Source: Perna viridis (lineage: Eukaryota). Taken from it: 64,000 nucleotides of DNA. The stretch spans positions 32,621,644-32,685,643 of the forward strand of contig CM074524.1 of the NCBI GenBank assembly GCA_037379345.1, in the 5' to 3' direction. A program made the position numbers. Position 1 is the first letter of the stretch; every line of letters begins with the position of its first letter. This document shows positions 36,001 to 51,000 of the stretch, one piece after another.

Positions 36001-39000
36001 CTGTTTCACAATTTAATGATTGCCTTGTGGTCAGGGTAGTAAATCTGTTAGTTATTTATAGATATGATTTAAGAGAAGAAGGTTCTCAGGGCACAGCAGT
36101 GGGCTTTTTTTAGGACATTTTTCAATGAAATATCATGCCAAAATGCTTTTTGTTTGATATGTTATGAATTATCCTTTCAAATTATGGCCCCTTATATCAG
36201 CCCTTGGTCTAATTGAGGCCTCACTGCTGTGCTAGAACTTATATCACACCAAGCATGTAGAAATTAAACTCTCCCAATTGGATCAGGGACTAAGTAGCGC
36301 ATAAAATTAGCAATTAGTCAAATTTGCTTGCATGCTGCAGCTTTTGAAATTTACATAGAGCAGTTTTACTATCCTATTTTGATTTTTTATGCAACTCAGT
36401 TTTTGGCAGTATTAATTTTTACATTTTCCTCATCACATAGTAGTCACATGATTTGCTCCCTGACCACGTGACAGTTTAATCACTGCATGATTGATGTGAT
36501 TACATTTAACATGACAGTCCTCACTCATTTTATTAATTATTACTTTAAAAGATAATTGAAAATAAATTCAGATCAGGTATTTTATCCATTTAGTCAAATG
36601 AATTTCTCTTCCTTGTCTTACATGTTATTGTCATAGTCTCATGGAATAAAGTTAAGTCTTTGTCTGTCTTTTTATCTGTGAACATCTATTTACATAGCAC
36701 TCTACAATACCATACTTGACCAAGTTTTCATCATTCATTTCCCATTTTTAACCTCTATTGATTTTCAAGGTCACATATATAAAATTGAAGGATTTTGATC
36801 AAATGTTACATTATGTAGACAAAAACCTCCCATCTTCAACTGATTTTTTCCAAACAGGGACTAAGAAGGAAAATCAAAATTGTATGTGAGATTTTGAGGT
36901 AACTAGTTATTTTTCAAGCTCATATGAACAACAGGAATTAGCTCACTTGAACAAATGTTTACACACAAATGCTAATTTAATAGTTGTCTCCCTTTTTAGA
37001 CAGGCAATATTAAATTTCATCATTAACTATTCATAAATACTGTACTAATACAATGATAGCAGAATTTACTTGCACATAGTATAATAGTTTCAATTACACT
37101 TCAATCTTTTCTAGTAAAAACAAAACATTTAAAATAGATAGGACTTTCCTGAATGTGGATATTAAAGAAATTATCTTTTCTTTCACAATAATAATTGGTG
37201 TCCTTACTTTATGTAACTTTTGGAAGGAAAAGTGATAGGTCATATTAATAAGTTGACATACATTTTGAAACCCTTAGGAAACAAATATGGTTATAATTGA
37301 GTACTTGGTGGACTAAATGCCTGTCTGAATGAATTTCTTGTACAGTTATTATCTTGTGTACAGTTTTCTTTTGTCGAGTAAAGTAAATGATTTGAGTGAG
37401 GACTGTCAATTTCAGCCAGATTCTCATACATGAAACATCCATTACAACTAAAGCATTCAGTTATATATTATTAAGTGAAATGTTGAGCTTGTTTTATGGA
37501 TACTACAATTTCAGTTGTTTGACATTTTTGCAATATTAACTTAATAAATCTTTTATATACAGAAGTCACAAGTTAGTTTAATGTATTTAATTGTAAGTTT
37601 TGTAGTTTCTTTGCAGATCAGGAAATTATTTGTGTGTTGTGTGTCTTCTATGTTGTGTCTTTGTCACCTTAATTGATTTAATAGGACCACAAAATTTCTC
37701 ATCCTGTGTACTCACATGACTGACATGTGCCTGTCACCAAATCACATGACCATGTCACATGATCAGCACCAGTGATCCTTAACAGGTTTGTAGGACCTTA
37801 AGGCCATTACAATATTATTCCATGATGCTTGCTATTTTCTTTGAAGACTTCATAATACATCCTGATCCTAAAATGTTGTTGTTAACAAGGCAAATTTTGT
37901 TTTCTCATTTTTTTTATTTCCTTATTTTAATTTTTAGAATACAAAAACTGAGGGATACAAATTGTGTCTTTAACCATGGATTTGTATTGTATTGGTCTAG
38001 AACTATGTCTTAAATTAATTTATTGTTTTGCTGCCCTTTTAGTTAAATTTGGCTAACCAATTATTCTTTAATAATTTTCAATCAAAAGCAGTTTAAAAAA
38101 AAACTGATTATACCCCACTCATTAGAGAAGGGGATATATTGCAATCACTTTGTCTGTCAGTTCTTCTGTCTGTAAGTTACAGTTTGTAGTAACACATATC
38201 TCTGCATTTATCTATTGGAGGATAAAGATGTTTGGTGTATTGTTTAACATGATGACATGTACCATGCGCCCCTTTCCAGGTTTGACAGAAATGGTTGAGT
38301 GAGGATATAACTAGCATAAGACTGTGTGCAAGATCTCATTCTTAATGATGTAGGAAAAGATTGATCTAAAACATTTTTTTTTTGGTTTTAAATAATTTCA
38401 AGAAATTTCTTAAAACTGTATTATATAAAGTAAATGAATCCTACAAAAAATTATTGTAAATTTACATAAACAGATGGAATTATTGATGGCAATAACATAA
38501 TAAAATATAGTTGGATCAAGATGTTTTAAATGATTTAAACCTTTTTAGATAATGATGAGGACCTTAATATCAGAGGAGAAAGATGTGATGAGGACGATCC
38601 TGGTTGGTCAGATGTTGAAGAAGCGGAAGCAATAGTTTCAACCCCAAAACGTAATAGAAAACTCAGACCAAAAACTCCTGTAGTTGAATGGGATGATGAA
38701 AAGGAAGAGGCAATTATTTCACGGAATAAAAATGATGAGACAGATAGCAAAAGAAGAGTCCATTTTGATGAGGCTGTTGAATGTGTTGCTGCATCAGATT
38801 CTGAAGATACCATCGGAAATAAGGAGGATGCAAATAATACAAAAGAATGTAACAAGGGGAGAGAATCAAAGATGAAAGTGAGAAATTTGTCAGATGAAGA
38901 GGATACTTGTGATGAAGTTTCTGACATTGAAACTGATCCAGACTCTCCTAGGAGGAGATATGATTCCCCTCGGCACTCCAATATGAAAGATTCAAAAGTA

Positions 39001-48000: not shown

Positions 48001-51000
48001 GACAAAAATATATCTGAAAAATATTCATCTTTGAAGGAAGCATCAAATGATGATGATGACTTTGATGCAATCTTGAATGAAATTGATGAAAAATTGGACA
48101 CAAGTGGTAAACAAGAACTTGCCAAACAACTTGAAGAGAAATTGTCAAATGACACAGGAAATGGAGAAGTTTTACTAACTAAACAGGAGTTTGAGTCTAT
48201 TATAGAGAGTGAAGCTGTGGTTCATATTGATAAAGAAACGTTAAAACAGATAAAATCAGCTGTTTATGATGTAGATGTGATGGATACAATATCAGAAGTG
48301 ACAACTGACTCTAAATAGATCTAAGTGTTCAGCCATTTTTTGCTTTATTGCTTGAATTGTGCACTATTTGTCTCATGCTGAAGAGGTTACACATGTCAAT
48401 TTTTATTTTATCATTTTAATACAAGCTCGTAGAAGTTTGTTAAATTTTCTTTGTAAGAAGTTAATAGATGTGGTAAAAATACAGATTGTTCTGCACATAA
48501 AACTGATAAGAACAATCACATTTTTAAGATAGTAGTCCTCCTTTTTTATGCCATTTCTTTAATGTGATTCAGCTGTTGACAATTAATCTTCAAGTCAGAT
48601 TCATTAATCTAGAAAAATCATAATTTTAAAACAACTCAGTAAAAAGTTTAAAGTAAAATGTGTAAGTACTGCTGGTTGTTTATTTTAAATGCTTTTCTTT
48701 GAATCTGTTCTTTTCCTAACTTTTATCAAAGTGTAAAAGATATTCAGATCATTAAAATTTTGATAGTTTTATATCTGGTTTGGTTTTTATGTGTTCTAGA
48801 ATGCTATGCATACTACTTGTAATTATGTCTTTGTGTTCTGTATCTGTAGTATCCACAATCACAAGTTAAACATTTCACTTGTTATATTCATTACATGTAT
48901 AAATTATGTCTCTTTCTCTTTTTCGTTATGCTGTTTCATAAAATGTCCTCATTTTTTTTCTGAACTCAAGTTTTGACCTGTCAAATCACTTGAAAATGAA
49001 GGTTTGAGGAAAAACTGAAGGATTTGAAGAAAATCACAATTTGAGATATTTTTATGAAACCAAGACCAGATGATCAACATGATGTTTTTATGTAGTGGTT
49101 ATTATTTTGAATTAAATGAATAGATATTACACATTAATAAGATAAAAATCAATCCCATTAATTTGAAATTGATGAATATATAAAAAAAAACTTGATTTCT
49201 AAATTTACAAAAAATTATCTACACAGACTTGGCATCATGTTGTGAATCTGGTTTCATTATTGTTGGAAATTACAATGTAGTGTGATTTGTTCAATTAAAC
49301 AAGTAGAGATATCTCATTAACAAGGCATTTCATGAAAAACAGCTTTTTTCTAAATGCCTTCTTCCTGGTTTTTTTATTCTTATTTTTTGAAGTGTTCAGC
49401 AACTAATGATCTATATTTCTGCAATTTGATTGGTCAATATTGATGAACTATCCATGAATACTTAATAATGCATTAAATTCCTTATTTAGATGTTTTCAAA
49501 ATTCCTATTTGTCCTGACCTTTCAATTGATTAGATCACAGAATTAAGTTCTGTTGTACAATAGTTAATTCTTGTTATTTGAGGTCTCTACACTGAGGGAA
49601 AAATCAGAAATGTTAATATAGGGAAACTACCTAATCTGATCAACTTCTAAATTGTCAAAAACAATGAATTATCTGTTTAATAGTTTTACTGAGTAGTTCA
49701 TAAACCAGGAAGATTCATTTTTTCTTGTACCAAGATGGCATATCTATAAACTTTGGAATTGTTCATGTAGGAGATTCTCCTTCATTTAAACTGTCTCATG
49801 TGGGAGATTTTTATGTAAAAGCAGATTTTTCGATTAATTTTATAGTGATTTTCTCAGAAAATATAGTCATTTTAACCAAAAACCTCCCACAAACCATACA
49901 TTTTTATGTGGGAGATTCTAAAAAAAATTTCATTGATTTTGTGGGTATCTTCCCCCTTAAACAGGTATGAGATAGATCAGATTAGACAAGTTTGACTCTT
50001 TCATTTTCTTTGTAAATTGACTAAAATATGCCACATCTTCATCCAATTTTCAGTAGTAGAAAAAGCCAAGAAGCCTGCAGATGACAGAGAAGATGAATAA
50101 AGACTCCATAGAGAGACAAACACTTGATTAGTTCCATAGATTTTTGTGTCAAACTTTGTAGATTTTAACCTTAGATTTGTGAGTGTCAAAACCGAGCTTT
50201 GTAGATATATTTATATTTATTATTGTTGAAATTTATAGTGGGCATTAAAAACCCAAACTTTTTTTGCATGTTTTTAAATGTTTTTTAATTTTCACCATTC
50301 AGATAAATCCTTTATGAAACAAGTACTTGTAGTTCCAAAGAAAAAGATGGATTTAATATCCCATAGTTATTAATCATTTAAAAGAAAAAAAAAATAAAGA
50401 TAGTACTAAAAATATCGTATAGCGGTTGTTTTGATGGTTGTAAATTTTGGCGATATTAATTCGAATAAGTAGATGAACAATTTTACCAATTCTAATTTTG
50501 GTGGATGTAAAGTGATGCTTATAAGCTCAGTGTTAATATTTTGCGAAATTTATAACTGCATTTTTTTTAGATAGACAGCTTAAATTCGCCAGAATGATGA
50601 GTACCCTGCTAAAAAATATCCACTTCAAGGAATATACCTCTTCATCATAAAACTCTGTGTCTAGTCCGAAATCAATTTTGTTGACCTTCTCTGTTGAATT
50701 TGTATCTATACATGTATAAACTTGTTTTTGTTCACGATTATTTTACATTGTTAAATTATACATGTATCTACTCTTTATAACTTTATCCTTGTTTGTTATT
50801 TTACAACCTAATTCTGGATTGTAGCTCTCTATTGAGCAAATTAACATGCGATAAGTGGATCTTTCTAGGGAAGATGAACACTTATGTCCTGTCTTGAAGT
50901 TTTACTGGGTGTCATTACTCGTATAAGGACTTTGGTCTGTCTCATAAATTTTCATTAGGTAAAACTTTGAACCTTACATGGGAAAAATTTAAATTAACTA

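What the first reader, a model, noticed from the sequence alone, without database searches (positions are those of the whole stretch)
38549..48318. 9.8-kb single giant exon acting as an alternative last exon of ERICH3 (about 3,760-aa isoform)
Seen: an uninterrupted 9,770-nt coding exon with a phase-1 acceptor and its own stop lies between exon 11 (phase-1 donor) and a second phase-compatible exon chain starting at 52028. Summed exon lengths give about 3,760 aa. Known: giant alternatively used exons (e.g. giant ankyrins) make tissue-specific scaffold isoforms. Inference: the conserved DUF4590 head can be fitted with either a giant acidic repeat tail or a Ser/Pro-rich tail.
Basis: partly seen in the sequence, partly recalled or inferred. 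Interest (0 to 1): 0.72.

Follow-up and report, generated by a model that had tools for sequence, protein, structure and literature searches.

The report
Giant alternative last exon of mussel ERICH3
A 9.8-kb uninterrupted coding exon in a mussel-lineage copy of the ciliary gene ERICH3 is real and most likely gives an optional giant acidic tail in place of the gene's ancestral tail, an arrangement already annotated in oysters but not found described in the papers searched.

Summary
Window 38539-48318 (+) is open for 3259 codons, against 163 and 590 stops in the other two frames. It starts at a phase-1 AG acceptor (exon start 38549) and ends at TAG 48316-48318. The donor at 33902 (CAG|GTAAGT) and the acceptor at 52028 are also phase 1.

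The upstream exons encode the DUF4590 head of ERICH3 ("glutamate-rich protein 3"). Database gene models support both junctions. Mytilus edulis and M. coruscus models join the head to the giant exon. M. galloprovincialis models join the same head residue to the 52028 chain. Oyster RefSeq lists both isoform classes, and an intron-free oyster contig carries the short form.

The window's giant exon matches the oyster long tail near its start (E about 1e-14) and at its last residues before the stop. This argues that it is a true terminal coding exon.

One correction: the "Ser/Pro-rich tail" is the ancestral tail. It runs past the window end into a leucine-rich-repeat domain found from Trichoplax to molluscs.

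No transcript data exist for this species, and the poly(A) site is unresolved. The case is a new, repeat-expanded member of an already annotated kind.

The parts
19096..19115 (+). Exon 1, coding part: ATG and 7 codons (MSQIHDG); donor GG|GTAGGT
   Evidence: Regex on the three forward frames, matching the N-terminus of the Mytilus proteins. Boundary inferred.
20263..20356 (+). Head exon 2 (PLATYSSLTDRNLAGYF...)
   Evidence: tblastn with P0002, 91% identity. AG and GT sites.
21074..21271 (+). Head exon 3
   Evidence: tblastn with P0002, 94% identity. Splice sites.
23984..24115 (+). Candidate optional exon (…IMPLLTPK…), phase 0 to 0
   Evidence: Open frame with flanking AG and GT. By eye, a similar segment is present in the Mya, Mizuhopecten, Pinctada and K1QC77 proteins and absent from the Mytilus models. 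Inferred.
25069..25203 (+). Head exon
   Evidence: tblastn. Splice sites.
26548..26649 (+). Head exon
   Evidence: tblastn. Donor TTCA|GTAAGA.
27133..27357 (+). Head exon
   Evidence: tblastn. Splice sites.
28192..28254 (+). 63-nt optional micro-exon (LEFRDNWHLADKK...)
   Evidence: tblastn with P0003, 71% identity. The segment is present in P0003 and absent from P0002 and P0004.
29191..29395 (+). Head exon carrying the first part of DUF4590
   Evidence: Pfam PF15257, profile positions 4-41, 28.7 bits. tblastn 88% identity. Donor GGTG|GTAAGA.
30178..30364 (+). Head exon carrying the core of DUF4590
   Evidence: Pfam PF15257, profile positions 35-98, 85.3 bits, E 3.6e-24. tblastn 84% identity.
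30816..30955 (+). Head exon (CKLNAQASPR...)
   Evidence: tblastn. Splice sites.
31984..32127 (+). Optional acidic exon, phase 1 to 1
   Evidence: Its counterpart is present in the M. galloprovincialis RefSeq X1 protein P0004 and absent from P0002, P0003 and P0015. Splice sites.
33840..33902 (+).
   Evidence: tblastn with P0003. This is the point where the two isoform classes diverge in Mytilus and oysters.
38549..48318 (+). Giant exon: 9,770 nt, 3,255 full codons plus one split codon, own stop TAG 48316-48318
38549..39558 (+). Conserved N-terminal module of the giant tail, with three islands: DTCDEVSDIETD..SPR near 38911, YSDDF near 39034, MNIIGPLATLLVKVRRKRRE near 39454
   Evidence: blastp to oyster long isoforms, E 1.8e-14 to 3e-13. 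A five-sequence profile also hits the Pinctada protein, E 1.7e-7 at Z=100000. Motif table.
41659..41913 (+). Three copies of an amphipathic motif (ADIVQDLDGLIDEL)
   Evidence: Among the top hydrophobic-moment 18-mers of the whole exon. Predicted helical, block mean pLDDT 50-79 (low-confidence model).
42190..42753 (+). Four copies of SS.V.EYV..VI..VK amphipathic helices separated by disordered linkers
   Evidence: Four similar copies occur in the M. edulis protein P0002.
43103..43388 (+). 24/48-nt tandem array (T/E/P/I-rich, about 12 units of 8 aa)
   Evidence: Tandem Repeats Finder. Translation.
43615..43680 (+). Single hydrophobic motif VELVVLETGMIGSLP, shared with M. edulis
   Evidence: Regex hit at residue 1693 of P0001 and residue 2200 of P0002.
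44598..46540 (+). 27-nt tandem array: 72 units of 9 aa, consensus VEA[TN]TETKP, no indels
   Evidence: 82% matches, 0% indels. (72 units, column counts).
46801..47328 (+). Five copies of a hydrophobic repeat of about 37 aa (IVES.V..AG..G..AVPEVPE)
   Evidence: Four copies by regex; the fifth by eye. No counterpart found in the oyster proteins by that regex. The fold model is unreliable (mean pLDDT 35).
48229..48297 (+). Conserved C-terminal motif DKET.K...Y.VDVM.TISE, 6 codons before the stop
   Evidence: The same motif ends the oyster long isoforms P0035, P0038, P0040 and P0041, 14 residues before their ends. Local alignment of the last 150 aa scores 112 or 103, against shuffle maxima of 92 and 71, so 0 of 300 shuffles reach it.
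48751..48756 (+). First ATTAAA after the stop (433 nt downstream); candidate poly(A) signal only
   Evidence: The first AATAAA is at 50096. Such hexamers are common here (AATAAA 1.4 per kb window-wide), so this is not evidence by itself.
52028..52260 (+). First exon of the ancestral tail (EKYKDDFES..., Ser/Arg-rich), phase-1 acceptor
   Evidence: tblastn with P0003, 55% identity.
53022..53094 (+). Tail exon (…YSDDDEQPES.KW…); boundaries inferred
   Evidence: Open frame with AG and GT. Resembles the ...YSDEDEQPESKKW segment of P0003/P0004 by eye.
53863..53938 (+). Tail exon (poly-Ser); boundaries inferred
   Evidence: Low complexity; weakly supported.
55839..57616 (+). Large tail exon (E/K/R-rich coil, then Ser/Pro/Thr-rich); start inferred
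   Evidence: 601-codon open frame. Its only hit among 1.84 billion representative proteins is P0003, E 1.2e-47. tblastn 55852-57603.
59077..59186 (+). Tail exon (acidic/Ser-rich)
   Evidence: tblastn with P0003. Splice sites.
63052..63243 (+). Last tail exon inside the window (…EPFISESEGE…NMHGG). The LRR exons of the orthologues lie beyond 64000.
   Evidence: tblastn with P0003 residues 928-986. P0003 residues 987-1315, which hold the LRR_6 domain, have no match in the window.

Best explanation
The window holds most of a bivalve (mussel-lineage) orthologue of ERICH3 (glutamate-rich protein 3). ERICH3 is a cilium-associated protein with a DUF4590 head.

After the last shared exon (donor at 33902, phase 1) the pre-mRNA has two choices.
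(a) It splices to the proximal acceptor at 38549. It then reads 9.77 kb of uninterrupted coding sequence to TAG 48316-48318 and is cleaved and polyadenylated somewhere in 48.3-52 kb. This gives a protein of about 3,700-3,800 aa whose tail is acidic (net charge about -280).
(b) It skips that exon over an 18.1-kb intron and splices to 52028. This gives the ancestral tail: Ser/Arg-rich, an E/K/R coil, Ser/Pro/Thr-rich, then an RNI-type LRR domain encoded beyond the window.

The giant exon is thus a 'skipped terminal exon' type of alternative last exon. The choice should depend on competition between use of the 38549 acceptor plus the proximal poly(A) site and splicing to the distal acceptor.

The giant tail is mostly disordered, with several distinct features:
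- conserved short islands near its start;
- a cluster of seven amphipathic helices;
- 72 tandem 9-residue P/E/V/K/T-rich units, which look like a spacer or spring;
- five hydrophobic repeats;
- a conserved C-terminal motif.

Shown: the open frame, splice signals, matching phases, homology of the head, of both tails and of the giant tail's two ends, and the existence of both isoform classes in Mytilus and oyster records.

Inferred: that both junctions are used in this species, the poly(A) site, any tissue specificity, and every statement about what the tail does.
For: Open frame and splice phases.

Head is ERICH3:
- DUF4590 in two exons.
- Eight head exons match M. edulis P0002 at 59-94% identity.

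Giant exon joined to the head in orthologue models:
- The only hit to exon residues 1-1300 among proteins of 1792-5704 aa is P0002, E 5.8e-113, and it carries PF15257.
- tblastn with P0002 covers 38551-40728 at 44% identity.
- blastp of the exon to P0015 gives E 6e-124.

Giant exon cannot start translation on its own. The first in-frame Met is about codon 111, while similarity to Mytilus begins at codons 5-8.

Skipping isoform:
- P0003 and P0004 read ...KKDSGT|EKYKDDFES.
- The 601-codon frame 55831-57636 has P0003 as its single hit, E 1.2e-47.

The downstream chain belongs to the same gene. 31 of the 120 listed relatives of P0003 combine PF15257 with LRR_6. They come from bivalves, gastropods, nemerteans, Trichoplax, Clytia and a sea urchin.

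Both classes occur in oysters:
- Long forms P0035, P0038, P0040 and P0041 (1969-2003 aa) have no LRR.
- Short forms P0008 and P0005 have the LRR. P0005 (1544 aa) sits on a 4,898-nt contig, which I read as intron-free transcript sequence.
- P0035 and P0005 are identical over the shared head apart from gaps (450 of 523 columns, 73 gaps). The classes diverge exactly after ...KKDEEK.

Terminal nature: the last 23 residues before the stop match the oyster long-form C-terminus.
Against: - No RNA data for this species could be consulted, so neither junction is observed directly.
- The Mytilus long models come from genomic contigs and their evidence base is unknown. P0002 and P0015 disagree at the acceptor by 13 residues.
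- P0002 stops inside the tandem repeats and P0015 stops earlier. The C-terminal 620 residues of the exon therefore have no Mytilus counterpart. They also found no relative among proteins shorter than 1792 aa.
- No AATAAA occurs within 1.78 kb of the stop. The ATTAAA hexamers at 48751, 49111, 49294 and 49472 were not tested against chance, and such hexamers are common in this AT-rich window (AATAAA 1.4 per kb window-wide).
- An older oyster model (P0011, K1QC77) joins the first third of the big exon to the Ser-rich/LRR chain. If that model is real, part of the exon can act as an internal exon through an internal donor. The window has consensus-like phase-1 donors inside the exon, for example CTG|GTGAGT at 39145.
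Confidence: 0.8

Rival explanations
1. The giant exon is a constitutive or internal exon. An internal phase-1 donor upstream of the stop joins it to 52028, so most proteins carry giant-exon sequence plus the LRR tail, and the in-frame stop is rarely reached.
For: The oyster model P0011 (K1QC77) has this layout: head, then about 330 aa of the big exon, then the Ser-rich chain and LRR. In the window, the four best consensus donors inside the exon (39145, 40015, 43762, 44284) are all in the phase that fits 52028.
Against: Gly-Glu codon pairs (GGT GAG) produce such phase-1 GT sites by composition alone. RefSeq and transcript-like records skip the exon entirely (P0004, P0005, P0008). The long oyster forms end at the same conserved C-terminal motif as the window's exon. 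P0011 is not a RefSeq isoform record, and I recall it as an early automated model.
Confidence: 0.08
2. The 9.8-kb frame is an independent gene with its own promoter, nested in an ERICH3 intron.
For: Nothing positive. The only point in its favour is that no transcript data link it to the head in this species.
Against: The frame opens exactly at a pyrimidine-AG acceptor. The first in-frame Met is about 110 codons in, while cross-genus conservation starts at codons 5-8. Ten stored database proteins place this sequence directly after a DUF4590 head: P0002 and P0015 (Mytilus), P0035, P0038, P0040, P0041, P0011 and P0037 (oysters), and P0032 (Pinctada) by profile hit.
Confidence: 0.03
3. The exons from 52028 onward belong to a separate downstream gene, so the giant exon is simply the last exon of ERICH3.
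For: The giant exon has its own stop, and 3.7 kb of AT-rich spacer follows it.
Against: DUF4590 and the LRR tail are on one polypeptide in 31 of 120 listed relatives across five phyla. An intron-free oyster contig encodes head plus chain plus LRR (P0005). The phases match. The 52028 exon follows the head directly in P0003 and P0004.
Confidence: 0.03
4. The frame is a decaying or non-functional exonised repeat that stays open only because tandem arrays of a stop-free unit dominate it.
For: Two arrays of 24 and 27 nt cover 745 of the 3259 codons. They also leave long open frames on the opposite strand, for example 44415..46541 (-), 708 aa.
Against: The 2,514 non-repeat codons are also stop-free. 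Conserved islands are shared with oysters at both ends of the exon. The 27-nt array has no indels in 72 units.
Confidence: 0.03

Closest known systems
Oyster glutamate-rich protein 3 long isoforms (Magallana gigas RefSeq X2, X3, X5 = P0035, P0040, P0038; Crassostrea virginica X4 = P0041)
   Same: They have the same DUF4590 head and the same divergence point after the acidic ...KKD... exon. The tail has the same N-terminal islands (DTCDEVSEIETD..SPR, YSDDF, MNIIGPLATLL-KVRRK) and the same C-terminal motif (DKET.K...Y.[VI]DVM.TISE) before the stop. There is no LRR. Short LRR-bearing isoforms exist alongside them.
   Different: The oyster tail is about 1,450-1,480 aa, against 3,256 aa here. The oyster proteins lack the 72-unit VEA.TETKP array and the five hydrophobic repeats by the regex used. 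Whether the oyster tail is a single exon could not be checked.
Mytilus gene models P0002 (M. edulis, 2626 aa) and P0015 (M. coruscus, 1355 aa)
   Same: Head plus giant-exon sequence. They are 40-44% identical to the window over the first 730-920 tail residues. P0002 also has SS.V.EYV amphipathic motifs, the VLETGM.GSL motif and a T/E/K/P/V-rich tandem array.
   Different: Both are incomplete at the 3' end. The P0002 repeat unit is 10 aa (TETKPVDTPT-like) rather than 9 aa. Tail identity is low although the heads are 59-94% identical, so the window comes from another genus (inference).
Vertebrate ERICH3 (human: 1530 aa, one DUF4590, localises to primary cilia; PMC6848114, abstract and two passages read)
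   Same: The N-terminal head and DUF4590 domain are shared, followed by a long acidic, low-complexity region.
   Different: All vertebrate entries listed carry PF15257 without LRR_6. No similarity to the giant exon was detected in the fish, frog, coelacanth or lizard proteins. Which bivalve tail, if either, corresponds to the vertebrate tail is unresolved.
Giant ankyrin exons
   Same: A single multi-kb exon, used optionally, that adds a long unstructured scaffold segment to a conserved protein.
   Different: Those exons are internal cassettes spliced on both sides. Here the exon carries its own stop and replaces the whole C-terminal half, including a folded LRR domain.
Titin PEVK-type spring segments (recalled; compositional resemblance only)
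   Same: Residues 2001-2750 of the exon are 10-20% each in E, T, K, V and mostly P, in short tandem units.
   Different: There is no sequence homology and no Pfam hit. The elastic role is pure inference.

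Membership tests
ERICH3 / glutamate-rich protein 3 (DUF4590 family) | A Pfam DUF4590 (PF15257) domain scoring above the gathering cut-off | tested here: met
   Tested exon by exon. The frame 29182-29553 scores 28.7 bits (cut-off 27), profile positions 4-41. The frame 30159-30368 scores 85.3 bits, E 3.6e-24, profile positions 35-98.
ERICH3 / glutamate-rich protein 3 (DUF4590 family) | The conserved N-terminal segment upstream of DUF4590 (PLATYNSLTD.NL.GYF.N.RMR.HL...), collinear with named orthologues | tested here: met
   tblastn with P0002 hits eight collinear head exons at 59-94% identity. 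The relatives are named glutamate-rich protein 3(-like) by NCBI.
Invertebrate ERICH3 architecture (DUF4590 + low-complexity region + PF27087 + LRR_6) | A C-terminal RNI-type LRR domain on the same polypeptide | not testable with these tools
   The window ends at 64000, at the exon matching P0003 residues 928-986. The LRR part of P0003 (residues 987-1315) has no match in the window. The domain is present in the Mytilus orthologues (LRR_6 52.9 bits in P0004).
Alternative last exon (skipped terminal exon type) | One shared upstream donor and two acceptors in the same phase | tested here: met
   The donor at 33902 and the acceptors at 38549 and 52028 are all phase 1.
Alternative last exon (skipped terminal exon type) | The proximal exon carries its own stop codon, and that end is a genuine C-terminus | tested here: met
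   TAG at 48316-48318. The C-terminal motif is shared with the ends of the oyster long isoforms.
Alternative last exon (skipped terminal exon type) | Its own cleavage and polyadenylation site downstream of the proximal exon | tested here: inconclusive
   ATTAAA at 48751, 49111, 49294 and 49472. The first AATAAA is at 50096. Such hexamers are common in this AT-rich window (AATAAA 1.4 per kb window-wide). No 3'-end data.
Alternative last exon (skipped terminal exon type) | Transcripts showing each junction in the same organism | not testable with these tools
   No RNA data for this species. In relatives, both classes are present as records. One short form lies on an intron-free contig (P0005: 1544 aa on 4,898 nt).
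A-kinase anchoring proteins (amphipathic docking helix for RIIa-type domains); a lead from memory | Recognisable similarity to known RII-binding helices | tested here: not met
   A profile of the four SS.V.EYV..VI..VK copies was searched against all PDB chains. It gave 4 hits with E 0.29-5.6, none an AKAP. No Pfam family reached its cut-off on this stretch. Short motifs are hard to detect this way, so 'works like' remains open.

The most novel reading that the evidence does not exclude
The giant tail may be an ancient second 'business end' of ERICH3, at least as old as the mussel-oyster-pearl-oyster ancestor. DEVS.IE motifs in Solemya and Nucella non-LRR models hint at a mollusc-wide origin.

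On this reading, alternative last-exon choice swaps the LRR interaction domain for a tether of more than 3,000 aa. The tether is built from docking helices, an entropic-spring array and hydrophobic end repeats. It would turn a ciliary transport factor into a structural linker of the dense motile cilia or sperm flagella of filter feeders. The spring length would be free to evolve by repeat expansion (9-aa units here, 10-aa units in Mytilus edulis).
Probability: 0.15. Interest if true: 0.6.

Novelty: new member of a known kind. Interest (0 to 1): 0.4.

Why it matters
ERICH3 is a poorly understood cilium protein. In mammalian cells its loss shortens cilia and disturbs retrograde transport (PMC6848114, abstract).

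This locus shows that in bivalves the same conserved head is offered two quite different C-terminal halves. One is the ancestral tail ending in an LRR domain. The other is a giant acidic tail whose ends have been conserved since mussels and oysters diverged. That gives a natural experiment on what the head does alone and what each tail adds.

The locus is also an example of a coding exon growing to nearly 10 kb by in-frame tandem repeats.

For genome annotation it is a warning case. Automated models in Mytilus and oysters split, truncate or mix the two tails (P0002, P0003, P0011, P0015, P0037).

I found no paper describing this arrangement. DUF4590 occurs in 1 paper of the library. 'Glutamate-rich protein 3' together with Crassostrea occurs in 0. 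The 8 papers holding ERICH3, 'alternative splicing' and 'isoform' are on other subjects, judged by title and abstract.

Tried and rejected
- Pfam on the whole giant ORF found 0 families at E<=1. On three sub-stretches it gave only sub-threshold noise: DUF4247 at 15 bits, TetR_C_21 at 12.5 bits, YLATT at 11.5 bits.
- The C-terminal 620 residues had no hit at E<=0.001 among 7,999 scored candidates shorter than 1792 aa.
- The ESM Atlas search on the same 620 residues gave no usable hit.
- The AKAP-like reading of the amphipathic helices got no support from the PDB profile search.
- AlphaFold2 without an alignment was run twice. On residues 1040-1420, mean pLDDT was 49.7; helices fall at the motif positions and the linkers are unstructured. 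On residues 2730-2960, mean pLDDT was 35.2; five beta-hairpins are drawn but the model is not trustworthy. No fold search was run because confidence was too low.
- A profile of the tail's N-terminal module found no match in the Solemya, gastropod, nemertean, cnidarian, echinoderm or vertebrate proteins held. Only the short DEVS.IE motif recurs, in Solemya P0039 and Nucella P0044.
The nine members of that cluster stay unseen.
- The Rfam scan of the window gave 0 matches.
- The sigma-70 promoter and terminator scan has no bearing on a eukaryotic locus and is disregarded.
- Paper search was badly framed: the bivalve words alone satisfied it. It gave nothing relevant.
All searches used single exons or database proteins.
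Exon structure in Mytilus or oyster genomes could therefore not be examined.

Full report
**What is in the sequence**

Under the standard code, one frame of the + strand is open from 38539 to 48318, which is 3259 codons. The other two frames of the same stretch hold 163 and 590 stops. With the window-wide stop frequency of 0.067 per codon, an open run of this length has a chance of about e^-226. Without the 745 codons of the two tandem arrays it is still about e^-174 (my arithmetic). Base use is strongly periodic by codon position.

The frame opens right after a TAA. Ten bases later comes ...cctttttAG|AT. The exon therefore starts at 38549 and its first two bases complete a codon, which makes it phase 1.

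The upstream donor is GAACAG|GTAAGT at 33902 and the downstream acceptor is gtttatAG|AG at 52028. Both are phase 1. The window contains one run of N (11024-11173), which I left alone. The sequence is bivalve, not human.

**The gene**

Pfam finds DUF4590 split over two upstream exons:
- 28.7 bits in the frame 29182-29553;
- 85.3 bits, E 3.6e-24, in 30159-30368.

A search with residues 1-1300 of the giant frame, among proteins of 1792-5704 aa, gave a single hit. It is P0002, a 2626-aa Mytilus edulis 'DUF4590 domain-containing protein', E 5.8e-113.

Mapped back with tblastn, P0002 covers eight collinear head exons between 20264 and 30957 at 59-94% identity. It then covers 38551-40728 at 44%, and finally the tandem array. 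With the ATG exon at 19096-19115 and the splice sites listed, I get:
- ten constitutive head exons (1,369 nt);
- three optional exons: 23984-24115, 28192-28254 and 31984-32127.

Adding the 9,767 coding bases of the giant exon gives 3,712 to 3,825 aa.

I summed lengths only.

**Is the downstream chain the same gene?**

The 601-codon frame 55831-57636 was scored against 1.84 billion representative proteins and hit one, P0003, with E 1.2e-47. P0003 is a 1315-aa M. galloprovincialis protein. It starts inside the DUF4590 head and reads ...KKDSGT|EKYKDDFES.... It continues through Ser/Arg-rich, E/K/R-rich and Ser/Pro/Thr-rich stretches and ends in a leucine-rich-repeat domain.

Its pieces map to the window at 52027-52263, 55852-57603, 59076-59201 and 63051-63245. 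Residues 987-1315, the LRR part, have no match, so those exons lie beyond position 64000.

A search with P0003 listed 120 of 164 relatives. Of those 120, 31 combine PF15257 with LRR_6. They come from bivalves, gastropods, nemerteans, Trichoplax, the hydrozoan Clytia and a sea urchin. All listed vertebrate entries have PF15257 without LRR_6.

The chain from 52028 is therefore not a separate gene. It is the ancestral tail of invertebrate ERICH3.

**Are the two tails alternatives?**

In Mytilus, P0002 and P0003 are identical for 195 residues up to ...GSKKDSGT and then diverge. One goes into giant-exon sequence and the other into EKYKDDFES. M. coruscus P0015 (giant) and M. galloprovincialis RefSeq X1 P0004 (LRR) show the same fork.

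In oysters both classes exist.
- Long class: Magallana gigas 'glutamate-rich protein 3' isoforms X2, X3 and X5 (P0035, P0040, P0038; 1969-2003 aa) and Crassostrea virginica X4 (P0041; 1998 aa). These carry DUF4590 but no LRR.
- Short class: C. virginica X9 (P0008; 1532 aa) and P0005 (1544 aa), which carry the LRR.
- P0005 sits on a contig of only 4,898 nt, so I take it to be intron-free transcript sequence.
- P0035 and P0005 are identical over the head apart from gaps. They part exactly after ...EEKKDEEK, the counterpart of the window's last shared exon.

The oyster long tail is homologous to the window's giant exon at both ends.
- Start: blastp gives E 1.8e-14 to 3e-13 over exon residues 45-331. 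There are invariant islands DTCDEVS.IETD..SPR, YSDDF and M.IIGPLATLL.KVRR..RE.
- End: local alignments of the last 150 residues score 112 and 103, and 0 of 300 shuffles reach them. The shared motif is DKET.K...Y.[VI]DVM.TISE, placed 6 residues (window) or 14 residues (oysters) before the stop.
- A profile of the N-terminal module also picks up the pearl-oyster model P0032, which was not used to build it (E 1.7e-7 at Z=100000).

Two points argue against an independent gene. The first in-frame Met is about codon 111, while conservation with Mytilus starts at codons 5-8. Every database protein that contains this sequence places it directly after a DUF4590 head.

**Mechanism**

The layout is a 'skipped terminal exon' type of alternative last exon.
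- From the donor at 33902, splicing to 38549 (4,646-nt intron) commits the transcript to the giant tail and to a poly(A) site in the 3.7 kb before 52028.
- Splicing to 52028 (18,125-nt intron) removes the exon and gives the LRR form.

This step is inferred from the signals and from the orthologues. It is not observed here.

The poly(A) site is open. ATTAAA occurs 433 nt after the stop and three more times by 49472. The first AATAAA is at 50096. Such hexamers are common in this AT-rich window (AATAAA 1.4 per kb).

A complication is the older oyster model P0011 (K1QC77), which joins the first third of the big exon to the Ser-rich chain. The window has consensus-like phase-1 donors inside the exon, for example CTG|GTGAGT at 39145. 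However, Gly-Glu codon pairs create such sites by composition.

**The giant tail as a protein**

It has 670 D+E against 388 K+R, a net charge of about -282. It has no Pfam family. In order along the chain, the features are:

| Exon residues | Feature |
|---|---|
| 1-340 | Conserved N-terminal module |
| 1041-1125 | Three ADIVQDLDGLIDEL copies |
| 1219-1413 | Four SS.V.EYV..VI..VK copies |
| 1522-1617 | 8-aa T/E/P/I-rich array |
| near 1693 | VLETGM.GSL motif, shared with M. edulis |
| 2020-2668 | 72 indel-free 9-aa units, consensus VEA[TN]TETKP |
| about 2755-2930 | Five hydrophobic repeats of about 37 aa |
| 3231-3253 | Conserved C-terminal motif |

The seven amphipathic copies are among the highest hydrophobic-moment segments of the protein. 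They are drawn as isolated helices in a low-confidence model (mean pLDDT 49.7). Four similar SS.V.EYV copies occur in M. edulis P0002. The corresponding M. edulis tandem array has 10-aa units. The hydrophobic repeats were not found in oysters by the regex used, and their fold model is unreliable (mean pLDDT 35.2).

My reading is inference only. The tail looks like a long flexible acidic tether with short docking helices and a spring or spacer array whose length evolves by repeat gain. It replaces the LRR interaction domain of the ancestral form. The helices reminded me of AKAP docking helices, but a profile search of the PDB gave no such hit.

**What is known**

ERICH3 is described as a 1530-aa human protein with one DUF4590. 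It localises to primary cilia and is needed for normal cilium length and retrograde transport (PMC6848114; abstract and two passages read).

The library searches found nothing on invertebrate ERICH3 isoforms or this exon:
- DUF4590: 1 paper;
- 'glutamate-rich protein 3' with Crassostrea: 0 papers;
- ERICH3 with 'alternative splicing' and 'isoform': 8 papers on other subjects, judged by title and abstract.

The arrangement is nevertheless present in public annotation (oyster RefSeq isoforms, Mytilus models). I therefore rate it a new, repeat-expanded member of a known kind, not a new kind.

**Limits**

- There are no RNA data for this species.
- No mollusc genomes are reachable with the tools, so I could not check whether the tail is one exon elsewhere, or whether scallops and clams have it.
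- Cluster members of P0002 could not be listed.
- The exon's last 620 residues have no detected relative apart from the oyster C-terminal stretch.

Noticed in passing
window 23984-24115, 28192-28254, 31984-32127: Three further optional exons in the ERICH3 head (132, 63 and 144 nt, all frame-preserving). Each is present in some orthologue records and absent from others. For example, the 63-nt exon is only in P0003 and the 144-nt exon only in RefSeq X1 P0004.
   Followed up: partly
window 39145, 40015, 43762, 44284: The four best consensus 5' splice sites inside the giant exon are all in the phase that would fit the 52028 acceptor. The old oyster model K1QC77 (P0011) uses such an internal donor. 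This may be a third isoform type or a by-product of Gly-Glu codon pairs.
   Followed up: partly
window 44598-46540 versus P0002 residues about 2250-2620: The tandem array has 9-residue units here (ETK spacing 9, 18, 27) but 10-residue units in Mytilus edulis (TETK spacing 10). The array has therefore been rebuilt, not merely lengthened, between mussel genera.
   Followed up: partly
window 44415-46541 (-) and other minus-strand frames over 41940-46541: Long open frames on the opposite strand (up to 708 aa) lie over the repeat-rich part of the giant exon. I take them as by-products of a stop-free repeat unit, not as genes.
   Followed up: no
window 370-519 and 1564-1707 (+): There are ankyrin-repeat coding fragments (Pfam Ank, E 3.5e-6 for 370-519) of another gene at the 5' end of the window. 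An acidic 139-codon frame at 3409-3828 may belong to it.
   Followed up: partly
window 8542-9525 and 14213-14887 (+): Two single-frame ORFs (327 and 224 aa) between the ankyrin gene and ERICH3 share short motifs (GY.CVCGGHD..G.R and YRTTYND.Y; BLASTP E 3e-6). They have no Pfam family and may be a local pair of uncharacterised paralogues.
   Followed up: partly
window 5616-5992, 15147-15506 (-), 16389-16772: A dispersed repeat of about 350-390 bp occurs in three copies at 79-86% identity (self-BLAST). By eye, a similar translated segment recurs at 53517-53690. It is probably a mobile-element relic.
   Followed up: no
window 53218-53493: A 46-nt tandem repeat (5.7 copies, 87% matches; also read as period 139) lies in the intron between two tail exons.
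   Followed up: no
proteins P0006, P0009, P0010, P0012, P0013, P0031: Scallop and one nemertean ERICH3 orthologue carry an extra PLAT domain (PF01477) inside the low-complexity region. Mussels and oysters do not.
   Followed up: no
proteins P0051-P0122: All listed vertebrate ERICH3 entries lack the LRR_6 tail that invertebrate orthologues from Trichoplax to sea urchin carry. Vertebrates seem to have lost it. Which bivalve tail the vertebrate acidic tail corresponds to is unresolved.
   Followed up: partly
proteins P0039 (Solemya velum) residue 1184 and P0044 (Nucella lapillus) residue 830: The DEVS[DE]IE[ST] island of the giant tail also occurs in non-LRR ERICH3 models of a protobranch bivalve and a gastropod. 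This hints that the alternative tail is older than the mussel-oyster group.
   Followed up: partly
window 11024-11173: A run of 150 N (assembly gap or mask) lies in intergenic sequence upstream of ERICH3. It was left as it is.
   Followed up: no
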